Positions 3,690 to 36,595 of a DNA stretch of 40,660 nucleotides are shown here, piece by piece (the stretch's first letter is position 1; each line of letters opens with the position of its first letter). Below the pieces are notes generated by a model that worked only from the letters and a program-made list of their open reading frames with translations, was not told where the DNA came from and did no database searches. This DNA is from a virus, in UHGV virus genome UHGV-0383422; one strand, given 5' to 3'. Position numbers and translations under genes: made by a program.

Positions 3690-6600
3690 AACGTTCTTCC
3701 AGAGACTGAATCCGCTCTTTTATCTTATCCATTTCTCTGCGCTGCCATGCTGCCTCGATATAGAATAAGAGATCAGGTCTGACCCCCCATCTAGATCCTG
3801 CTGGCGTTATTTCAACGCGCTCAATGATGTCTTCCATTACCATCACTGGATTATCATCCTCATCAACAATGATGCTCCCGTCATTATCAGTCAGCGGCAT
3901 TTCCCTTTGGCCAGTAATGACGTCATCATATACTGCGGGATAATCGTCATAGCAAAGAAAGGCATAGCGGCATGTTGTGCTTTCTTCTTCCATGAGTCCG
4001 TGAGAAATAAGAACATCACGAAGTTGCTGCGCGATTACACCATGATGTATCCTCGCCCCTTCTTCCCCCTTTATAGCGACAGCGTTCAGCCATTTATAAG
4101 CGATATACCTGACGTCACCCCAGGCATCCAGCAATGCTTCGTCAGGAGAGACCGGCTCTGTCTTTAATGTTCCGTCACTGGTAACCACAGGATTGGAGCC
4201 AAGATAAACTGTCGAGAACCTGTTTCCCGGACCACCAAGAGCATTTACATTATCAAGATAAGGTTTAACATCTCCGTTCTCAAAAAGATGTTCGAGTGCG
4301 TTATATACCGCGCGACGTGGAGTACTGCTTCCGGAACCATGCAACGTTATCATTGCACCATCTGCTGAAGACGTTGTTTCACCGCCGCTAACGATTAATC
4401 TCTGAGCGGTAACATCATCAGACGGTACTTTCTTCGCAATAATGGCGTAATTACCCTCAAGTTTGACTTCCGCGCGAACTTGTCCTGATGTACCTGCATG
4501 GACAGTCAGTGACTGGACGGCAACATCATCTGTGAAATCAACGGGTACAGGAACCGTCCTCACGCCTGACGTCGACATAAAAGTAGGAAGCGTTCTGTTA
4601 GGAGTGGCTCCGTAGACAAAATCCCTTGAAACAAATTCTTCCTGTTTAATTTTCACCCTGAAACAATACAAATCAGCCGGGTGACCATCGTGAACATAAG
4701 GATATTTTCTGTTGTTATCCCCTATGCTCCATGGGTTTAGAAAGTCTTCCCCACCGAAAATGTAGTACAGCCAGTTGTCTTTGATACAAACTGAACCAAC
4801 ACCAACTGCAGAGTTAACTATTCCGCCCTGATAAATCTGATCAGTAACATTAACCCACTCTACATTATCCAGACTCCACTCATTGACGTTAACTCTGGTC
4901 ATAAATGTTCTTGGATAATTTCCTGCATAACGGTTATCAGGTTCTCCTCCTTCCCACTCACCAAATGCGCGCTCACTGCCAAAAATAATCAGCTCATCGC
5001 CAACTTTGGCAAAAGGAAGGTTTGAGTGATGAACATTATTTGGGAAGCGAAGAGAATTCCATGATGTACCTAAATCAGAGCTTCTGTGCAATGAACTACC
5101 GGGTTGAGTACTTAATGTCCCCCTGGTCGTCAGATACAGAATGCCATCATAATATTTTACACATGGCTCAGATGCATTCGCCTCATATTCTGCAGGTATG
5201 CGTCTGCGAACAAAGCTACCAGGAGAACCGAAAGCATCAGAGAAATAGAGTATCCCAAGCTCGCGTGGACCAATATCACCATTATGGTAGCCAACAGCAA
5301 AACTGTTATCGCTAATCGTCGCAAAACTGTGAATCTCAGTAACAGGAGTGCTTCCGTCAACAAAAGAAGGAATAGTTCCAAGACTGGTTTTTCTCCATGG
5401 TGACGAGTGAAATGATGTACCAAAACTCCAGTATCTACCCTCGTTATTCTGATCCACATCCTGGGTATTTTGCGTCGTAACTGTAAAAGTATTTTTATCA
5501 ATAACAGTAGTCACCGTCATATTCCCGGTAACACCTGTAACACCAGAGTTTGAGAAGTTGACAAAATCACCAGCAAATAATCCGTGATCAGTAATGCGAA
5601 TATAAGCGACTTGCTGATTTGCTGCTTTCGTTATACCACCATAAGCGCGAAGGCTGCGACTCATTGGGCGATCCCACAACTCTGCAACCTGCAGTTTATT
5701 TCCGCTCACGGTCCGCGTCTCAATTACAGCAAAAAGGCGATTTCTGACAACCCCCATACTCATGCAGTGATAGTTAACTGTGGGATAGTTTTCATGTAAA
5801 TCTGTAAGCCATTCCGGCGTTGTCCAGGTCTTCCCGTCATCTCCTGAGCGAACCCATGCAACATGGAGGTTATTTACACCATGGCGGTCTCCAGCCATAA
5901 AAGGCGCATAGATGACATTGTCATATACAAACGTTTTATCCTGCGTCCAGGCGTTGTACCACGGTGTATCTGTAATTTTAAATAACTCTCCCTGGATAAA
6001 ATCTTCAGAAGCATAAAAAAGAGGCTGGCCCGGTATTCTCTCAAATAAAAAACGAGCATTTTTAAATCGACTGACATCCGGAAGAGTTGATACTTTAAAA
6101 GTAAGCCCTAATCCGTCAATTTTATAACCTGGAGATGAGGCTTCAAGGCACGCGCTTATTGCAGTGGAATCGTCATTTATACCATCACCAACAGCTCCAA
6201 AATCTTTGGGGCTAATAGCATCACGCATTTTATCCTGGAACGTTCGGTACACAGCCCCAGAACCATACTGAATAAACCAACCAAAACCACCAACAACCCC
6301 GGCGATTGCAGCATCGACATAATTACGCATTGAGCGATTATTTACAGCGTCCTGCTCAAATGATGGATCTGCAAGGTTAGAAATTTTGTTTTGCTTTGCA
6401 TCGTAATATTTTGCAAGCAAAGATGGTTTCATCAATGCACGTCTGAACCACCCAAAACATTGCTGGATCAGCATCGTCAGGTAGTCAAAGGCATCTTCAT
6501 GCACTTCGGGGAAAAATTTTCCCTGATTGCGAAGGTCTGTCTCCTGCACTACATCAAGCACACGATCTATCGTAATTCGCCATCCAGTAGCAAGCGGAGA

Positions 6601-7266: not shown

Positions 7267-7284
7267 AGGCCGCAAGAGCGGCCT
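7267..7284. terminator. hairpin between convergent genes (possible bidirectional terminator)
   Basis: Stem AGGCCGC/GCGGCCT with AAGA loop; T-rich flanks on both sides. Confidence 0.45.
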
Positions 7285-8011
7285 ATCGTTTCGCTTTGTG
7301 CTCGTCCCAGCACGTTTTGCACCATGCCATTAAGCCGTCCGCATTTTGATTATTAGGGTAAAAGCTGGTCCGTTTTCTGCGGACATTACAAATTGGGCAC
7401 CACTTCATATGGCGTGTATTCTTTGGGCCATCGAGACACCTTGCACACCACTTAGTCAATCCATCTGGATTTTTTGACGATTTCCGGAATTTGTCATATG
7501 GAAGGTTTATTCTGCATCGCAAACACTGCTTGCGGCCACTTGAAACTCTGTTAGCTGATTCTTCTTTTGGCGGCGATACAGAAGGTATTCTTGCTGGCTC
7601 TGATACTGCCTGAGGTGCTTTTTTAGATGACTGAGACGATATGTCATCACCAGGGAATCTTCCATGATATGCCGGACGCATTGATACTCCAGGTGGAAGC
7701 TCAGCTGTAAACGGCTTTGGCTGAATCAGTTGCCTCTCTTTTGCTAACTCCTGCTGTTTACAATATGTCTGGATTACCGCACTATCATAAGCAGGAGGTG
7801 CGGAAATATTAGGCGCATTACCTCCAGTTTTTTGAAACTGAGTAGAGGTGTGTTCTATCACCTGTGTACGATTAATCGTTATCTCCCCATCTTCGGTCTT
7901 TATCGTTTTGTTATGATTAACGACCGTACGATCAGAGATCTTAGTCTTGTTCTGGTTGATAACGTAAATAATCACCGCAACCACACCAACAACTATCCAG
8001 AAAACTTCCAT
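7283..8011 (-). CDS. membrane-anchored protein with C-terminal tandem Cys4 zinc-ribbon repeats (function unknown)
   Basis: 242 aa; N-terminal transmembrane helix; two approx 30-aa repeats each CxxC...DGL..WC..C; GAGGAA Shine-Dalgarno. Confidence 0.65.
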   Translation of the reverse strand: MEVFWIVVGVVAVIIYVINQNKTKISDRTVVNHNKTIKTEDGEITINRTQVIEHTSTQFQKTGGNAPNISAPPAYDSAVIQTYCKQQELAKERQLIQPKPFTAELPPGVSMRPAYHGRFPGDDISSQSSKKAPQAVSEPARIPSVSPPKEESANRVSSGRKQCLRCRINLPYDKFRKSSKNPDGLTKWCARCLDGPKNTRHMKWCPICNVRRKRTSFYPNNQNADGLMAWCKTCWDEHKAKR

Positions 8012-8030: not shown

Positions 8031-8047
8031 ATTACCTTAAAGGTAAT
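8031..8047. promoter_or_regulatory. operator-like palindrome ATTACCT-TAA-AGGTAAT (perfect)
   Basis: 20-36 bp upstream of the start codon of the 7283-8011 gene; a weaker copy ATTACCT-TTG-CGGTAAA lies at 8124-8140. Confidence 0.5.
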
Positions 8048-8408
8048 ATCTTGCTTTCAGGTGATCAAGCGTTAAACGCCACCAACCAAATACGGTTGAT
8101 TTTGATATTTCTCCGCGTTTATCATTACCTTTGCGGTAAATTTACATCGCACTCCTCTTGTGCCATAGTAATCGGGCACTGGCAAAATCCAGTGCCGGGA
8201 TTGGCGTCCCGGGTTACTAAGTGGCGCATACCACGCCAGACGTGGTTTTTTTATGCGTTAAGCACAGCTATATCCGAATTATGGTGGGCTGGGCAGGGGT
8301 CCGAAAGGACGCCGGTACCACTTAGGCCGGTACGCCAACCTTGTCCAGTTCACCACCAGTAATTGGCGTTGCGGTGGTGATTAAAATCACTAAGTGGAGA
8401 TAACCACC

Positions 8409-9119
8409 ATGGCTAATGCTCAAACTTCCATCTTCAAATTTGAATCTGTTAACCCTATCCGTTCCATCATTATCGATGGCCAACCATGGTTTGTAGCCCA
8501 AGACGTTTGTAGTGCGCTGCGTATCCAAAACGTCACCCAAGCACTTGAAAAACTGGATGATGATGAAAGGTCTATGTTCAACATAGGGCATGAACATCGT
8601 GCAATTTTTGACAGCCGAGTAAAAGAGATCAACATCATCTCCGAGTCAGGCCTCTACACACTGATCCTCCGCTGCCGCGACGCAGTGACACCAGGCACTA
8701 TCCCCTACCGCTTTCGTAAATGGGTTACGGGTGAGGTTCTTCCTCAGATCCGCCGCACCGGAAGCTACATTAAAAACTCGCTCCCGCAGGAAGAACGCAT
8801 AAAGATGGTTGCCGACCAGGTGGCCAACGCCACGGCGTCAGCAGTAATGCAGGCGATGAAGATAGAGAACAAAACCTACAGCGCCCCACTGAATCCCGGC
8901 TACCGCAGCCTGATTCATTCGCCGTCTGGTGTTCTCGGCCTGACGGAGAACTCACTGCTGATGAATCTGCTGAACCAGTTACAGGACGACGGGCACGACG
9001 TATCGGGCGCGGCGGCGGAGCTGACCACCATGTTCTGCTACATCGTCGGTGTGAGCAAATGCCTGCGTGATATCCAGACCCACGCGGAATACATCAACGA
9101 CAAGGCAGGGTTCTTCTGA
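8409..9119 (+). CDS. Bro-N domain antirepressor-like protein
   Basis: 236 aa from ATG at 8409 with GGAGA Shine-Dalgarno; N-terminal Bro-N/KilA-N-like region; C-terminal domain homologous to the 7003-7260 product. Confidence 0.7.
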   Translation: MANAQTSIFKFESVNPIRSIIIDGQPWFVAQDVCSALRIQNVTQALEKLDDDERSMFNIGHEHRAIFDSRVKEINIISESGLYTLILRCRDAVTPGTIPYRFRKWVTGEVLPQIRRTGSYIKNSLPQEERIKMVADQVANATASAVMQAMKIENKTYSAPLNPGYRSLIHSPSGVLGLTENSLLMNLLNQLQDDGHDVSGAAAELTTMFCYIVGVSKCLRDIQTHAEYINDKAGFF

Positions 9120-9126
9120 CGGGCGG

Positions 9127-9152
9127 TGGCACAGGGATGTGCCTTTAAATAA
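9127..9152 (+). terminator. rho-independent terminator after the Bro-N gene
   Basis: Stem GGCACA/TGTGCC with GGGA loop followed by TTTAAATAATT. Confidence 0.55.
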
Positions 9153-9190
9153 TTCTGTACAGATTGCAGACTGTGGGTGAATAGCGTACT

Positions 9191-9207
9191 ATTACCTTAA
9201 AGGTAAA
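9191..9207. promoter_or_regulatory. operator-like palindrome ATTACCT-TAA-AGGTAAA
   Basis: Immediately upstream of the GGAGG Shine-Dalgarno and ATG (9219) of the 55-aa gene. Confidence 0.5.
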
Positions 9208-9218
9208 GGAGGCGCGAT

Positions 9219-9386
9219 ATGACAGCGTTGAAAAATCGTACTCAGCACAATGAACAAGCCAAGCAATGCTGGGATGTCATTGGAAAAGTTATGCTTGGCC
9301 GCGCAAGCAAAGAGCGCGACAAGGATATGGTTTACCAGACAGGAACATCTTTCAGCGACTTCAAGGCGGCATTTCGCTCCAAATAG
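9219..9386 (+). CDS. hypothetical small protein (55 aa)
   Basis: ATG with strong AAAGGAGG Shine-Dalgarno; hydrophilic; not in the supplied track (below 60 aa); overlaps the N-terminal extension of listed ORF 9266-9847, which I reject. Confidence 0.55.
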   Translation: MTALKNRTQHNEQAKQCWDVIGKVMLGRASKERDKDMVYQTGTSFSDFKAAFRSK

Positions 9387-9406
9387 AAGCACATCAGGAG
9401 TTTTCC

Positions 9407-9847
9407 TTGAAGTTTAACATTAGAATATCTAATAGTTTTCTACATGGGGAAAGCAACACCCCTTTCGCTGTAGACGGACCTTTCCTTACTGATGATGAAA
9501 TAAAAATCATACAAAGTTTTTTAGAGGATGTTGCCAATGGAAGGGCGCTTGTTGGAAAAAACAAGCCCTCGTGGGTTGATGATAACCATGATAAAATTCC
9601 CGGCTCAGACAATTATGAGCAAGAGAATTATTGGCATTATCATTGTGGGCCAACATGGTATCCAAACACATTTAAGAATTATACCATTAACTTAAATTTC
9701 AACCCTGGCGGAAGGCATTCTAATGAATGCATTCATTATGCAAAAAATGATAATGAAATTGTCATTGTTGGATTTTCAAGAGAACACATACCTTTCCTTT
9801 CATCAGATGGAAACAACAATCCGCTTTTTAATGATGAAGAAGAATAG
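9407..9847 (+). CDS. hypothetical protein, AT-rich accessory gene (about 146 aa)
   Basis: Same frame as listed ORF 9266-9847, but start placed at in-frame TTG 9407 six nt after AGGAG; no in-frame ATG in the AT-rich part; sharp drop in GC from about 9400; terminator follows. Confidence 0.5.
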   Translation: MKFNIRISNSFLHGESNTPFAVDGPFLTDDEIKIIQSFLEDVANGRALVGKNKPSWVDDNHDKIPGSDNYEQENYWHYHCGPTWYPNTFKNYTINLNFNPGGRHSNECIHYAKNDNEIVIVGFSREHIPFLSSDGNNNPLFNDEEE

Positions 9848-26706: not shown

Positions 26707-26783
26707 GTGGCATTAGCTCAGTTGGACAGAGCAACCGCCTTCTAAGCGGTTGGTCGCAGGTTCGAATCCTGCATGCCACGCCA
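26707..26783 (+). tRNA. tRNA-Arg (anticodon UCU)
   Basis: Folded by hand: acceptor GTGGCAT/ATGCCAC, D-arm GCTC/GAGC, anticodon stem ACCGC/GCGGT with loop CTTCTAA (anticodon TCT), T-arm GCAGG-TTCGAAT-CCTGC, discriminator G and CCA. Confidence 0.9.
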
Positions 26784-33711: not shown

Positions 33712-34488
33712 TTACTTGATAAATCCTGCCGCCTTTCCCCGCCTGTATTCCTCCATCAGCCACTGCGCCGGTGTTATTCCCCCAAGGGTGGCGGCGTTAG
33801 GCATGCACCCGAAACTTCGCCCTGGTGGATGGTAAACGTCTCTCCCTGTGTCCGGAGGTGTACTCATGGGCTCTGGCTTTGCCTGTATGCTGATCACCGG
33901 ATCGGGTATCTGCTGTCCGGAAGCCACCTTTTTCGCCCAATCATCGAGCAGCCTGCGCGCGTGTTTCTCAACCTCACTCTCGCTAAGCTGGCGCTGATAC
34001 ATTGCACGACGGGTATCACATACGACCCAGTACATAACCGGATGCCGCCACGGGAATCTTTCGGGACCACCAGGATATAAACTTTTTTCCTTGCTGTACC
34101 GGTGAAACTCCGCCATCACATCGTCAATGGTGACGCCAAGAACCATCTTGCTGTCTTTGCACCACTTGATGAATTGCCCTGGCGACGGCCAGAACGGAGA
34201 TTCACTGGCGCGGGCGTGGCGCATACCAGCGTTAACCTGTTCCATTGTAGTGATCCCATTCTCCAGAAACGCAAGCATCCATTGCTTACGGAATTCATTA
34301 AGTTTGTTCTGCTCCCTTATGGTCGAAACGCTTGCAGGAAATGCAGCCTGTAACTGGACAAATAGTTCATTGAAAATTCTAGCAACCTGCTCCTTTTTGC
34401 CATTGCTGTCACGCCGCTCTTCATGCACAGCAACACCATGCTCACGTAAGCGATCGTACTCATTGAGAAGTTCTGGAGTTGATTTCAT
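33712..34488 (-). CDS. replication protein (P-like helicase-loader candidate)
   Basis: 258 aa, downstream of and overlapping the initiator-like gene; no Walker A; assignment by position. Confidence 0.5.
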   Translation of the reverse strand: MKSTPELLNEYDRLREHGVAVHEERRDSNGKKEQVARIFNELFVQLQAAFPASVSTIREQNKLNEFRKQWMLAFLENGITTMEQVNAGMRHARASESPFWPSPGQFIKWCKDSKMVLGVTIDDVMAEFHRYSKEKSLYPGGPERFPWRHPVMYWVVCDTRRAMYQRQLSESEVEKHARRLLDDWAKKVASGQQIPDPVISIQAKPEPMSTPPDTGRDVYHPPGRSFGCMPNAATLGGITPAQWLMEEYRRGKAAGFIK

Positions 34489-36010: not shown

Positions 36011-36595
36011 ATGAAAAGTATCCAGGACGTCCGCAGGCAAAATCTCAACGACTTGATCGACCGTGAATTCAATGGTGTTCAGACGCGGATGGCAGAAAAA
36101 CTTGGAACTCAGGCAAATCTGGTAAACCGCTGGGCTCTTGGCAAGAAGGTTATCGGCGACCAGGTTGCACGAAAAATTGAAGCTGCCGCCAATAAACCCC
36201 GTAACTGGCTTGATATTGATCGTTCGCTTTCTCAGGAGGGTTTTCAGCCTGTCGGCCCGAGCGATATAGGTCAGCTGGCGGCTCACAACCTGGAACGCTG
36301 GATGAGCGAAAGCCGCGACCTTTCAACACAGGGAAAACTTCACCGCGCATCCGGCGTCGCCCAGGTGACAATCAGCCGCCTGTTAAACAATGAGGTCAGC
36401 GTTTCCATTTCCACCCTGGAGAATGTTGCATCCGCATTCGGGCGTCACGGATATGAACTACTGATTCACCCGCACGACCCTGCGACTATCAACTATGACC
36501 GCTCACGCTACGCATTGTTACCCGAAACCGAGAAAGCAAAGATCGAAAGTTACATTGAATTTGTCATCAACCAGAACGAAAAAAGCAAACAATAA
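36011..36595 (+). CDS. CI-like repressor candidate (HTH; no LexA-type self-cleavage domain evident)
   Basis: 194 aa; HTH-like segments; no Ser-Lys peptidase motif; divergent from cro-like gene; own terminator. Confidence 0.55.
   Translation: MKSIQDVRRQNLNDLIDREFNGVQTRMAEKLGTQANLVNRWALGKKVIGDQVARKIEAAANKPRNWLDIDRSLSQEGFQPVGPSDIGQLAAHNLERWMSESRDLSTQGKLHRASGVAQVTISRLLNNEVSVSISTLENVASAFGRHGYELLIHPHDPATINYDRSRYALLPETEKAKIESYIEFVINQNEKSKQ

What the first reader, a model, noticed from the sequence alone, without database searches (positions are those of the whole stretch)
8048..8408. About 360 bp of structured, GC-rich non-coding leader upstream of the Bro-N gene
The stretch has no convincing ORF (listed 8051-8362 starts at TTG and is Trp/Arg-rich). 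It contains several strong hairpins (GGCACTGG/CCAGTGCC at 8175-8196; CCACG/CGTGG followed by seven T at about 8231-8252; GTCC-GAAA-GGAC near 8299-8310) and repeated ACTAAGTGG-like elements at 8215-8223, 8316-8324 (inverted) and 8388-8396. This resembles a regulatory RNA or attenuator controlling antirepressor expression rather than spacer DNA.
Basis: seen in the sequence. Interest (0 to 1): 0.45.

Follow-up and report, generated by a model that had tools for sequence, protein, structure and literature searches.

The report
Antisense-RNA switch guarding a phage antirepressor

Summary
The stretch 8048-8408 is real regulatory sequence of a known kind. Rfam places an isrK sRNA at 8176-8252 (67.7 bits, threshold 50) and a C4 antisense RNA at 8277-8360 (66 bits, threshold 45). 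The window is an epsilon15/phiV10-like (Uetakevirus) prophage.

A second triplet was missed: a1 TTGGCGT 8201-8207, a' ACGCCAA 8332-8338, a2 8363-8369.

Across 82 related modules these sites change together, with 23 variants of the a' linker and 50 b' loops. C4's own helices also covary (17 of 26 pairs).

A promoter-like site at 8141-8169 abuts an operator-like inverted repeat that occurs 14 times in the window.

Most likely mechanism, as in P1 c4-icd-ant and Gifsy-1 IsrK: C4 blocks antirepressor translation, and the terminated upstream RNA carries decoy sites. This module has no icd.

Novelty: new member of a known kind. Interest: low.

The parts
8032..8046 (.). Operator-like inverted repeat TTACC-N5-GGTAA, next to the start of the leftward gene 7283-8011
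   Evidence: 14 sites in the window (at most 1 mismatch) against 0.68 expected from shuffles.
8125..8139 (.). Operator-like inverted repeat TTACCTTTGCGGTAA, ending 1 nt upstream of the -35 hexamer of the cassette promoter
   Evidence: The same arrangement is kept in relatives L087 and L107, whose spacers differ. It is analogous to the C1 operator Oc4/Op51 at the P1 c4 promoter.
8141..8169 (+). Sigma-70 promoter-like site: -35 TTTACA 8141-8146, TG 8161-8162, -10 CATAGT 8164-8169. The implied start is about 8176.
   Evidence: 9 of 12 matches, extended -10. The implied +1 coincides with position 1 of the Rfam isrK model. This is a consensus match only and has not been shown to function.
8176..8252 (+). 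IsrK-like short RNA, equivalent to the a1/b1 element. Hairpin 1 is 8176-8195; hairpin 2 is 8196-8211.
   Evidence: Rfam RF01394: 67.7 bits against a gathering score of 50. RF03163 c4-a1b1: 44.1 bits against 46.7. Four of the 7 pairs of hairpin 1 covary.
8201..8207 (+). Site a1 (TTGGCGT), in the loop of hairpin 2; complementary to a'
8217..8224 (+). Site b1 (CTAAGTGG), single-stranded, just upstream of the terminator; complementary to b'
8230..8252 (+). Intrinsic terminator of the short RNA (ACCACG-CCAGA-CGTGGT followed by U7)
   Evidence: Every related module has a GC-rich stem plus U-run at this place, with differing stem sequences.
8277..8360 (+). C4 antisense RNA. Outer stem 8282-8298 with 8339-8355; hairpin 1 8299-8310; hairpin 2 8311-8331. 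By homology to the annotated mature P1 c4, the mature RNA would be about 8283-8357.
   Evidence: Rfam RF01695: 66 bits against 45. The minimum-energy fold equals the Rfam structure, z = -5.0. Of 26 pairs, 17 have compensatory changes, and 98.9% of cells are paired against 84.5% in shuffles.
8318..8325 (+). b' (CCACTTAG), in the loop of C4 hairpin 2
8332..8338 (+). a' (ACGCCAA), which is exactly the 7-nt single-stranded linker of C4
8350..8380 (+). Alternative hairpin. The 3' strand of the C4 outer stem (UCACCACC 8350-8357) pairs with GGUGGUGA 8373-8380, enclosing a2. It cannot form at the same time as the folded C4.
   Evidence: fold; 8 of 9 predicted pairs show compensatory changes in 63 sequences, including P1 and Gifsy-1. 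One search lists the variants.
8363..8369 (+). Site a2 (TTGGCGT), target of a'
8390..8397 (+). Site b2 (CTAAGTGG), target of b'; overlaps the Shine-Dalgarno GGAG at 8396-8399
   Evidence: In 82 related modules, b2 ends 7-14 nt before the start codon in nearly all.
8409..9119 (+). Regulated gene: a Bro-N domain protein of 236 aa, a putative antirepressor
   Evidence: Pfam Bro-N, E = 9.6e-20. The phiV10 homologue is annotated as a putative anti-immunity protein.

Best explanation
This is a P1 immI-type antisense-RNA cassette sitting in front of a Bro-N antirepressor gene in an epsilon15/phiV10-like prophage.

Proposed sequence of events:
1. A promoter at 8141-8169 starts transcription near 8176. 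It is probably shut by the phage's own repressor through the adjacent TTACC-N5-GGTAA operator.
2. Most transcripts stop at the terminator (8230-8252). This gives a ~77-nt IsrK-like RNA that displays site a1 in a hairpin loop and site b1 as single strand.
3. Read-through transcripts carry the C4 RNA (8277-8360). In phage P1 this RNA is cut out of the precursor and acts in trans.
4. C4's linker a' and loop b' pair with a2 (8363-8369) and b2 (8390-8397) on the same operon's mRNA. b2 overlaps the Shine-Dalgarno sequence, so the antirepressor is not translated. Downstream transcription may also fall through polarity.
5. The upstream a1/b1 copy competes for C4. As a free short RNA it would titrate C4 and switch the antirepressor on. 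In the nascent transcript it may let C4 tune termination and hence its own synthesis.

What is shown: family membership, the structures, the complementarity, and its covariation across relatives.
What is inferred: transcription from this promoter, processing of C4, the repression itself, and the decoy role of a1/b1.
For: Rfam matches above gathering scores: isrK 67.7 against 50, and C4 66 against 45. c4-a1b1 scores 44.1 against 46.7, with E = 5.6e-10.

The annotated P1 record has the same layout: C1 operator Oc4, promoters, a1, b1, c4 RNA, a2, b2, then icd and ant. P1's own upstream part scores as isrK-like at 35 bits.

C4 structure:
- The minimum-energy fold equals the Rfam structure, z = -5.0.
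- In 56 relatives, 17 of 26 pairs carry compensatory changes. 98.9% of cells are paired, against 84.5% in shuffles and 33-48% when partners are slid.

Intermolecular sites, tested without circularity. C4 copies were found with a covariance model, and a'/b' were read from structure columns. Numbers of modules with a perfect complement of at least 7 nt in the cognate flank, against the rate with non-cognate flanks:
- a1: 80 of 82, against 2.2%
- a2: 79 of 82, against 0.9%
- b2: 71 of 82, against 3.0%
- b1: 52 of 82, against 6.5%
There are 23 variants of the a' linker and 50 distinct b' loops.

In the set of 64 unique modules, b2 ends 7-14 nt before the start codon in 61 of the 63 with a called start.

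The downstream genes are antirepressor-type proteins (Bro-N, Rha, ORF6N, AntA, KilAC, P22_AR_C) or Icd-like ORFs.

Experimental support from a homologue: in Gifsy-1 the published compensatory pairs G28-C162 and G31-C159 (PMC4825925) are exactly a1:a' pairs. There, IsrK supplied in trans raised anrP translation 139-fold and transcription 8-fold.
Against: There are no expression data for this phage.
- The promoter is only a consensus match. The scan found 3 sites in the region against 2.1 expected.
- Thermodynamic co-folding does not predict the C4-target duplex while C4 stays folded, because loop-linker contacts are outside that model. Only the core duplex energies stand out: -30.3 and -36.4 kcal/mol, z about -3.6.
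- The Shine-Dalgarno to ATG spacing of 9 nt is rather long.
- The antirepressor function of the Bro-N protein is inferred from domain and context only.
- In Gifsy-1 a cis a1 mutation (G28A) raised expression rather than lowering it. A pure decoy model does not predict this, so a1/b1 may act mainly in cis on folding or termination.
Confidence: 0.85

Rival explanations
1. Gifsy-1-style activation through an upstream small ORF. The long transcript is translationally silent. The short IsrK RNA opens it so that a small ORF starting at the AUG in the C4 5' strand ("orf45") is translated, and ribosomes then pass by coupling into the antirepressor gene.
For: This is the published model for the homologous Gifsy-1 locus (PMC4825925). 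The window has the same AUG, at 8281.
Against: From that AUG the ORF is 45 codons in Gifsy-1 and overlaps the anrP start. In the window it is 14 codons, stopping at 8323-8325, 83 nt before the Bro-N ATG. It is also 14 codons in P1. Across relatives the lengths scatter from 3 to 280 codons. Coupling therefore cannot operate here. The conserved features are RNA pairs, not a peptide.
Confidence: 0.05
2. P4 CI-like transcription control. C4 acts mainly by pairing with a1/b1 and a2/b2 in the nascent RNA to promote premature termination, at the isrK terminator or through Rho, rather than by blocking ribosome binding.
For: b1 (8217-8224) lies 5 nt upstream of the terminator stem. In Gifsy-1, IsrK in trans raised a transcriptional fusion 8-fold, and the authors themselves raise a CI-like role for STnc1160. 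This can coexist with the best explanation.
Against: b2 overlaps the Shine-Dalgarno sequence in nearly all modules, which points to translation as the primary target. In Gifsy-1 the translational effect (139-fold) far exceeds the transcriptional one (8-fold).
Confidence: 0.25
3. A purely cis-acting leader: an attenuator hairpin plus structured spacer, with no trans-acting RNA.
For: A strong intrinsic terminator sits inside the leader. The a1b1:a'b' pairing can form in cis, and was shown on native gels for Gifsy-1.
Against: The three-way match of a1 = a2 and b1 ~ b2 with a'/b' is kept through 23 a' linker variants and 50 b' loops. That is not needed for a simple attenuator. In P1 the homologous RNA is annotated as a separate 77-nt product, and Gifsy-1 has a stable processed species, STnc1160.
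Confidence: 0.05
4. The stretch encodes a protein: ORF 8051-8362, 103 aa, TTG start.
For: The ORF is open.
Against: It has a TTG start with no Shine-Dalgarno sequence. A relative 93% identical over the matched stretch (L033) differs by a 2-nt indel in the first C4 hairpin. The substitutions are compensatory for RNA helices. No CDS is annotated there in phiV10 or RefSeq.
Confidence: 0.01

Closest known systems
Phage P1/P7 immI operon: c4 antisense RNA with a1/b1 and a2/b2 sites, then icd and ant1/2 (Citron & Schuster 1990, 1992, cited; P1 record NC_005856)
   Same: - The order of parts is the same: repressor operator, promoter, a1, b1, terminator-like hairpin, C4, a2, b2, target gene.
- C4 has the same fold, with b' in the loop of hairpin 2 and a' as the 7-nt linker.
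- b2 covers the ribosome-binding site.
- The 3' end is tRNA-like (stem followed by ACC).
- The alternative a2 hairpin is also present in P1.
   Different: - There is no icd. C4 targets the ribosome-binding site of the antirepressor gene directly. This holds for 38 of 79 related modules, and 41 have an Icd-like ORF.
- The antirepressor is a Bro-N protein, not Ant1/Ant2.
- The a and b sequences differ (P1: TTGACAG and GTTAGTG).
- The host phage is a small podovirus-type prophage, not a plasmid prophage.
- The upstream element scores as a full isrK (67.7 bits, against 35 bits in P1).
Gifsy-1 IsrK - orf45/STnc1160 - anrP locus of Salmonella (Hershko-Shalev et al. 2016, PMC4825925)
   Same: - The same three Rfam elements occur in the same order.
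- IsrK is terminated, with read-through into the antirepressor gene.
- a1 is identical (TTGGCGT).
- The published IsrK:orf45 base pairs are a1:a' pairs.
- b2 overlaps the anrP Shine-Dalgarno sequence there too.
   Different: - orf45 (45 codons, overlapping the anrP start) is not conserved; the window has 14 codons.
- The window has no isrJ downstream and no antQ upstream.
- The antirepressor protein differs.
APSE phages of Hamiltonella: isrK plus c4 next to a BRO-N gene (PMC7313666)
   Same: An isrK and a c4 sRNA lie upstream of a Bro-N domain gene in a short-tailed temperate phage. The a'/b' matches in the upstream region of the Bro-N gene have already been reported. APSE-2 is also a DNA hit to this stretch (H57).
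   Different: The host and phage lineage differ. That paper also reports a second match, in the DNA polymerase gene. No second a+b site exists in this window.
Satellite phage P4 CI RNA with seqA/seqC
   Same: The logic is tripartite: an upstream target copy, a processed antisense RNA, and a downstream target copy. The IsrK authors call IsrK a structural homologue of SeqA.
   Different: CI acts by premature transcription termination of replication genes, not on an antirepressor ribosome-binding site. The comparison rests on the paper; no P4 sequence was examined here.
P22 immI sar antisense RNA (arc-ant)
   Same: It gives antisense control of an antirepressor near the tailspike gene of a short-tailed temperate phage.
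   Different: sar is transcribed from the opposite strand (this is from my own knowledge of P22). Here all elements are on one strand. The - strand folds no better than shuffles (z = -1.2), and no Rfam sar match was reported.

Membership tests
C4 antisense RNA (Rfam RF01695) | Covariance-model score at or above the curated gathering score | tested here: met
   66.0 bits against 45, E = 8.6e-11, full-length match to model positions 1-87 at 8277-8360 on the + strand.
C4 antisense RNA (Rfam RF01695) | Long outer stem enclosing two hairpins, supported by covariation | tested here: met
   The minimum-energy fold equals the model structure, z = -5.0. Of 26 pairs, 17 have compensatory changes; the covariation score is 0.515 against 0.241 in shuffles.
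C4 antisense RNA (Rfam RF01695) | a' and b' complementary to a2/b2 ahead of the regulated gene, with b2 over the ribosome-binding site | tested here: met
   a' 8332-8338 pairs with a2 8363-8369. b' 8318-8325 pairs with b2 8390-8397, which overlaps GGAG 8396-8399. Cognate against non-cognate rates: 79 of 82 against 0.9%, and 71 of 82 against 3.0%.
C4 antisense RNA (Rfam RF01695) | Excised from a longer precursor to a stable RNA of about 77 nt (RNase P for the 5' end in P1; from my own knowledge of Hartmann et al. 1995) | not testable with these tools
   Only the tRNA-like end is visible: the stem is followed by A8355-C-C, as at the annotated P1 3' end.
P1/P7 immI operon (c4-icd-ant) | An icd ORF between C4 and the antirepressor gene, whose translation is the direct target | tested here: not met
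   The first ORF after b2 is the 236-aa Bro-N protein. It has no Icd-like match (NF033153), whereas the short ORFs of 41 related modules match it.
P1/P7 immI operon (c4-icd-ant) | Upstream a1/b1 copy of the target sites | tested here: met
   a1 8201-8207 and b1 8217-8224 are identical to a2 and b2.
P1/P7 immI operon (c4-icd-ant) | Promoter under an operator of the phage's main repressor | tested here: inconclusive
   An inverted repeat at 8125-8139 abuts the -35 hexamer. It occurs 14 times in the window against 0.68 expected, including beside an HTH_3 gene at 36011-36595. Binding was not tested.
isrK sRNA (Rfam RF01394) | Covariance-model score at or above the gathering score, ending in an intrinsic terminator | tested here: met
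   67.7 bits against 50 at 8176-8252. Terminator at 8230-8252.
isrK sRNA (Rfam RF01394) | Hfq binding, and trans-activation of the downstream antirepressor | not testable with these tools
   Known only for Gifsy-1 (PMC4825925).
isrK sRNA (Rfam RF01394) | Downstream orf45 translationally coupled to the antirepressor gene (Gifsy-1 model) | tested here: not met
   The ORF from AUG 8281 is 14 codons and ends 83 nt before the Bro-N ATG.
c4-a1b1 motif (Rfam RF03163) | Covariance-model score at or above the gathering score | tested here: not met
   44.1 bits against 46.7 at 8163-8215, though E = 5.6e-10 and both hairpins align. It is a near miss. P1 scores 51.0 and Gifsy-1 48.1.
P22 sar antisense RNA | RNA transcribed from the strand opposite the antirepressor leader | tested here: not met
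   No Rfam match was reported. The - strand of the C4 region folds at z = -1.2.

The most novel reading that the evidence does not exclude
The cassette may be a three-state RNA switch rather than a simple antisense repressor.

1. The terminated IsrK-like RNA would act as an anti-antisense sponge for C4.
2. A conserved hairpin would re-use the 3' strand of the C4 stem to enclose a2. It shows 8 of 9 covarying pairs and is present from P1 to Gifsy-1. It would couple C4 folding and processing to target accessibility.
3. The freely recombining a and b alleles (23 a' linker variants, 50 b' loops) would form a two-part specificity code. That code would set which co-resident prophages can silence each other's antirepressors.

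On this reading the Gifsy-1 "orf45" is C4 itself, and the published IsrK effects are C4 titration.
Probability: 0.3. Interest if true: 0.45.

Novelty: new member of a known kind. Interest (0 to 1): 0.22.

Why it matters
This module decides whether an antirepressor is made, and so whether the prophage stays silent.

It is common and unannotated. At least 80% of the 301-nt stretch is found in 436 of 5,426 complete E. coli genomes, and RefSeq annotates only the BRO-N gene under the match.

Annotating it would explain an otherwise "empty" 400 bp. It would also predict immunity relationships between prophages from the a and b alleles.

The comparison bears on the Gifsy-1 IsrK model as well. The element read there as orf45 is a C4 RNA, and its coding frame is not conserved.

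None of this is a new principle.

Tried and rejected
- Protein-coding reading of 8051-8362: rejected because of non-triplet indels and RNA covariation.
- tRNA or tmRNA in the stretch: ARAGORN finds only tRNA-Arg at 26707-26783.
- First operator search with a 6-nt spacer: 0 hits. The correct spacer is 5 nt.
- Thermodynamic co-folding of whole C4 with the leader or with isrK: it gave no intermolecular a/b pairing, because these algorithms cannot model loop-linker contacts of a folded RNA. Only the core duplex energies were usable.
- Extra C4 targets elsewhere in the window, as reported for APSE: none found. A lone CTAAGTGG on the - strand at 7455 is at chance level.
- Classic P1 papers (PMC312442, PMC196329, PMC523184): not held. 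P1 details come from the GenBank annotation, from reference lists and from my own knowledge where marked.
- The first, exact-match census of a/b sites was circular in how it located the sites. It was redone with structure-defined a'/b'.

Full report
**What is in the sequence**

The stretch lies between a leftward gene (7283-8011) and a rightward Bro-N gene. That gene starts at ATG 8409 and ends at 9119 (Pfam Bro-N, E = 9.6e-20).

The repeated ACTAAGTGG is real but 1-2 nt off: 8216-8224, 8389-8397, and inverted at 8318-8326.

Folded as RNA, 8176-8425 has z = -4.4.

Two claims need correcting:
- The whole stretch is not GC-rich: 49.3% against a window mean of 48.9%. Only 8176-8360 is, at 56%.
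- The first 128 nt look like promoter and operator DNA, not leader.

**Identity**

An Rfam scan of the whole window at curated thresholds gives three hits:
- tRNA-Arg at 26707-26780
- isrK at 8176-8252 (67.7 bits, threshold 50)
- C4 antisense RNA at 8277-8360 (66 bits, threshold 45)

A more permissive scan adds the c4-a1b1 motif at 8163-8215. It scores 44.1 bits, just under its threshold of 46.7, with E = 5.6e-10.

The phage is epsilon15/phiV10-like (Uetakevirus). The best DNA matches are HEMP4 (97%), TL-2011b and phiV10. The phiV10 record annotates only a terminator and an "anti-immunity" Bro-N gene here.

**Anatomy, using phage P1's names**

The fully annotated P1 record shows this order: operator Oc4, promoters, a1 (7 nt), b1 (8 nt), c4 RNA, a2, b2, icd, ant.

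The window has the same order:
- Operator-like inverted repeat: 8125-8139
- Promoter: -35 TTTACA 8141-8146, TG, -10 CATAGT 8164-8169
- RNA start: about 8176
- Hairpin 1: 8176-8195
- Hairpin 2: 8196-8211, with a1 TTGGCGT (8201-8207) in its loop
- b1 CTAAGTGG: 8217-8224
- Terminator: 8230-8252
- C4: outer stem 8282-8298 with 8339-8355; hairpin 1 8299-8310; hairpin 2 8311-8331 with b' CCACTTAG (8318-8325) in its loop; a' ACGCCAA (8332-8338), which is exactly the 7-nt single-stranded linker
- a2: 8363-8369
- b2: 8390-8397, overlapping the Shine-Dalgarno GGAG at 8396-8399
- Start codon: ATG 8409

By homology to the annotated mature P1 c4, the mature RNA would be about 8283-8357. It would end in a stem followed by ACC, as a tRNA does.

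**Conservation of the C4 and isrK structures**

A scan of viral contigs with a pattern from isrK hairpin 1, chosen to contain no a or b bases, returned 120 loci.

In an alignment of 56 distinct C4 sequences:
- 17 of 26 pairs have compensatory changes.
- 98.9% of cells are paired, against 84.5% in column shuffles and 33-48% when partners are slid by 1-3 columns.

In isrK, hairpin 1 covaries at 4 of its 7 pairs. Every copy ends in a GC-rich stem plus U-run, with a different stem sequence.

**Conservation of the antisense contacts**

A first census by exact matching found 64 distinct modules in which a1 = a2 = the complement of a', with b behaving likewise. It counted 14 a alleles and 42 b words. 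That census located the sites by the match itself.

I therefore repeated it in a way that does not assume the answer. A covariance model built from the C4 alignment found 87 C4 copies, including those of P1 and Gifsy-1. a' and b' were then read from structure columns alone.

Modules with a perfect complement of at least 7 nt:

| Site | Cognate flank | Non-cognate flanks |
|---|---|---|
| a1 | 80 of 82 | 2.2% |
| a2 | 79 of 82 | 0.9% |
| b2 | 71 of 82 | 3.0% |
| b1 | 52 of 82 | 6.5% |

There are 23 variants of the a' linker and 50 distinct b' loops. The three copies of each site therefore change together, which is what selection for base pairing predicts. b1 is looser than b2.

**What is regulated**

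In the 64-module census, b2 ends 7-14 nt before a start codon in 61 of the 63 modules with a called start. In the 82-module set, the ORF that follows is one of two kinds:
- Long, in 38 modules. The proteins sampled carry Bro-N, Rha, ORF6N, AntA, KilAC or P22_AR_C domains, all of antirepressor type.
- A 54-81 aa Icd-like protein, in 41 modules (NCBIfam NF033153).

The window belongs to the icd-less class, in which C4 targets the antirepressor's own ribosome-binding site.

**Link to experiments**

In Gifsy-1 the same three Rfam elements occur in the same order ahead of anrP.

Taking the Rfam isrK start as +1, every mutation numbered in Hershko-Shalev et al. 2016 falls on the expected base:
- G28 and G31 lie in a1 (26-32).
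- C162 and C159 lie in a' (158-164).

So the published compensatory pairs G28-C162 and G31-C159 are a1:a' pairs. In that system:
- IsrK in trans raised anrP translation 139-fold and transcription 8-fold.
- An a' mutation (C162U) raised basal expression about 120-fold.
- IsrK-G28A no longer activated.

These results fit C4 acting as the repressor and IsrK acting as its competitor. That reading is my inference, not the authors'.

Their "orf45" starts at the AUG of the C4 5' strand. The same AUG in the window (8281) opens only 14 codons, as it does in P1. Across relatives the lengths scatter from 3 to 280 codons. Translational coupling through that ORF therefore cannot work here.

**Mechanism proposed**

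The operon is transcribed from a repressor-controlled promoter. Most transcripts end as the short a1/b1 RNA, and read-through yields C4. C4 pairs through its linker and loop with a2/b2 and blocks translation of the Bro-N antirepressor. The short RNA, or the a1/b1 segment of the nascent transcript, competes for C4.

A role for C4:a1b1 pairing in termination, as with P4 CI RNA, is a live complement. b1 sits 5 nt from the terminator stem, and transcription rose 8-fold in Gifsy-1.

Shown: family membership, structures, complementarity and covariation.
Inferred: transcription from this promoter, processing, repression and the decoy role.

**An extra conserved structure**

The 3' strand of the C4 outer stem (UCACCACC, 8350-8357) can instead pair with GGUGGUGA (8373-8380), enclosing a2.

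In 63 distinct sequences, including P1 and Gifsy-1, 8 of the 9 predicted pairs show compensatory changes. Examples are CUAUCGCC with GGCGAUAG, and CAUCACC with GGUGAUG.

This hairpin cannot form at the same time as folded C4. It could link C4 maturation to target exposure. I could not establish whether it has been described before.

**Novelty**

- The C4 and c4-a1b1 motifs were catalogued in 2010 (PMC2864571).
- The mechanism has been known for P1/P7 since 1990 (references).
- The isrK + c4 + Bro-N arrangement was reported for APSE phages (PMC7313666).
- The module occurs in 436 of 5,426 complete E. coli genomes, where RefSeq annotates only the BRO-N gene under the match.

This is an unannotated member of a known kind, so interest is low.

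Noticed in passing
window 1309, 6912, 8032, 8125, 9192, 26370, 29475, 29493, 33598, 33660, 35893, 35941, 36653, 36715: The inverted repeat TTACC-N5-GGTAA occurs 14 times (at most 1 mismatch) against 0.68 expected. By eye against the ORF list, the sites look intergenic, but this was not checked site by site. Two pairs flank an HTH_3 (Cro/C1-type) gene at 36011-36595. This looks like the operator set of the phage's main repressor, scattered over the genome as C1 operators are in P1.
   Followed up: partly
window 8350-8380; also L123 (P1) 4407-4445 and L122 (Gifsy-1) 34104-34147: A conserved hairpin re-uses the 3' strand of the C4 stem to enclose site a2 and cannot coexist with folded C4. In 63 sequences, 8 of 9 pairs show compensatory changes.
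   Followed up: partly
L122 (Gifsy-1) 34131-34214, - strand: The published "orf45"/STnc1160 region of Gifsy-1 is a full C4 antisense RNA (69 bits). The published IsrK:orf45 compensatory pairs are a1:a' pairs. The orf45 frame is not conserved: 14 codons in the window and in P1.
   Followed up: yes
downstream proteins of related loci (e.g. L042, L006, L024) compared with window 8409-9119: By eye, several antirepressors downstream of related cassettes share a C-terminal part resembling that of the window's protein (motif ...GHDV.GA...). In some (e.g. L042, L024) it is near-identical (...SPSGVLGLTENSLLMNLLNQLQ.DGHDVSGAAAELTTMF...). Their N-terminal domains differ: Pfam found AntA in the L042 protein and ORF6N in the L006 protein. 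This suggests domain shuffling around a common C-terminal module. No alignment was made.
   Followed up: no
L077 (2422 and 3565), L053, L010, L031: Some viral contigs carry two isrK/C4 cassettes. In L077 the first copy has lost matching a2/b2 sites, so it may be a decaying duplicate or may act only in trans.
   Followed up: no
window 9126-9206: Another promoter-like site (9126-9153) and another copy of the TTACCTTAAAGGTAA repeat (9192-9206) lie just after the Bro-N gene. They precede small ORFs (9219-9386, 9266-9847) that have no Pfam or NCBIfam match.
   Followed up: no
window 26707-26783: A tRNA-Arg(TCT) gene is carried by the phage (73.3 bits; also found by ARAGORN).
   Followed up: no
window 8083-8105: A small hairpin plus T-rich run (CAACCAAATACGGTTG ATTTTGAT) lies on the + strand upstream of the cassette promoter. 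It may terminate transcription coming from the left.
   Followed up: no
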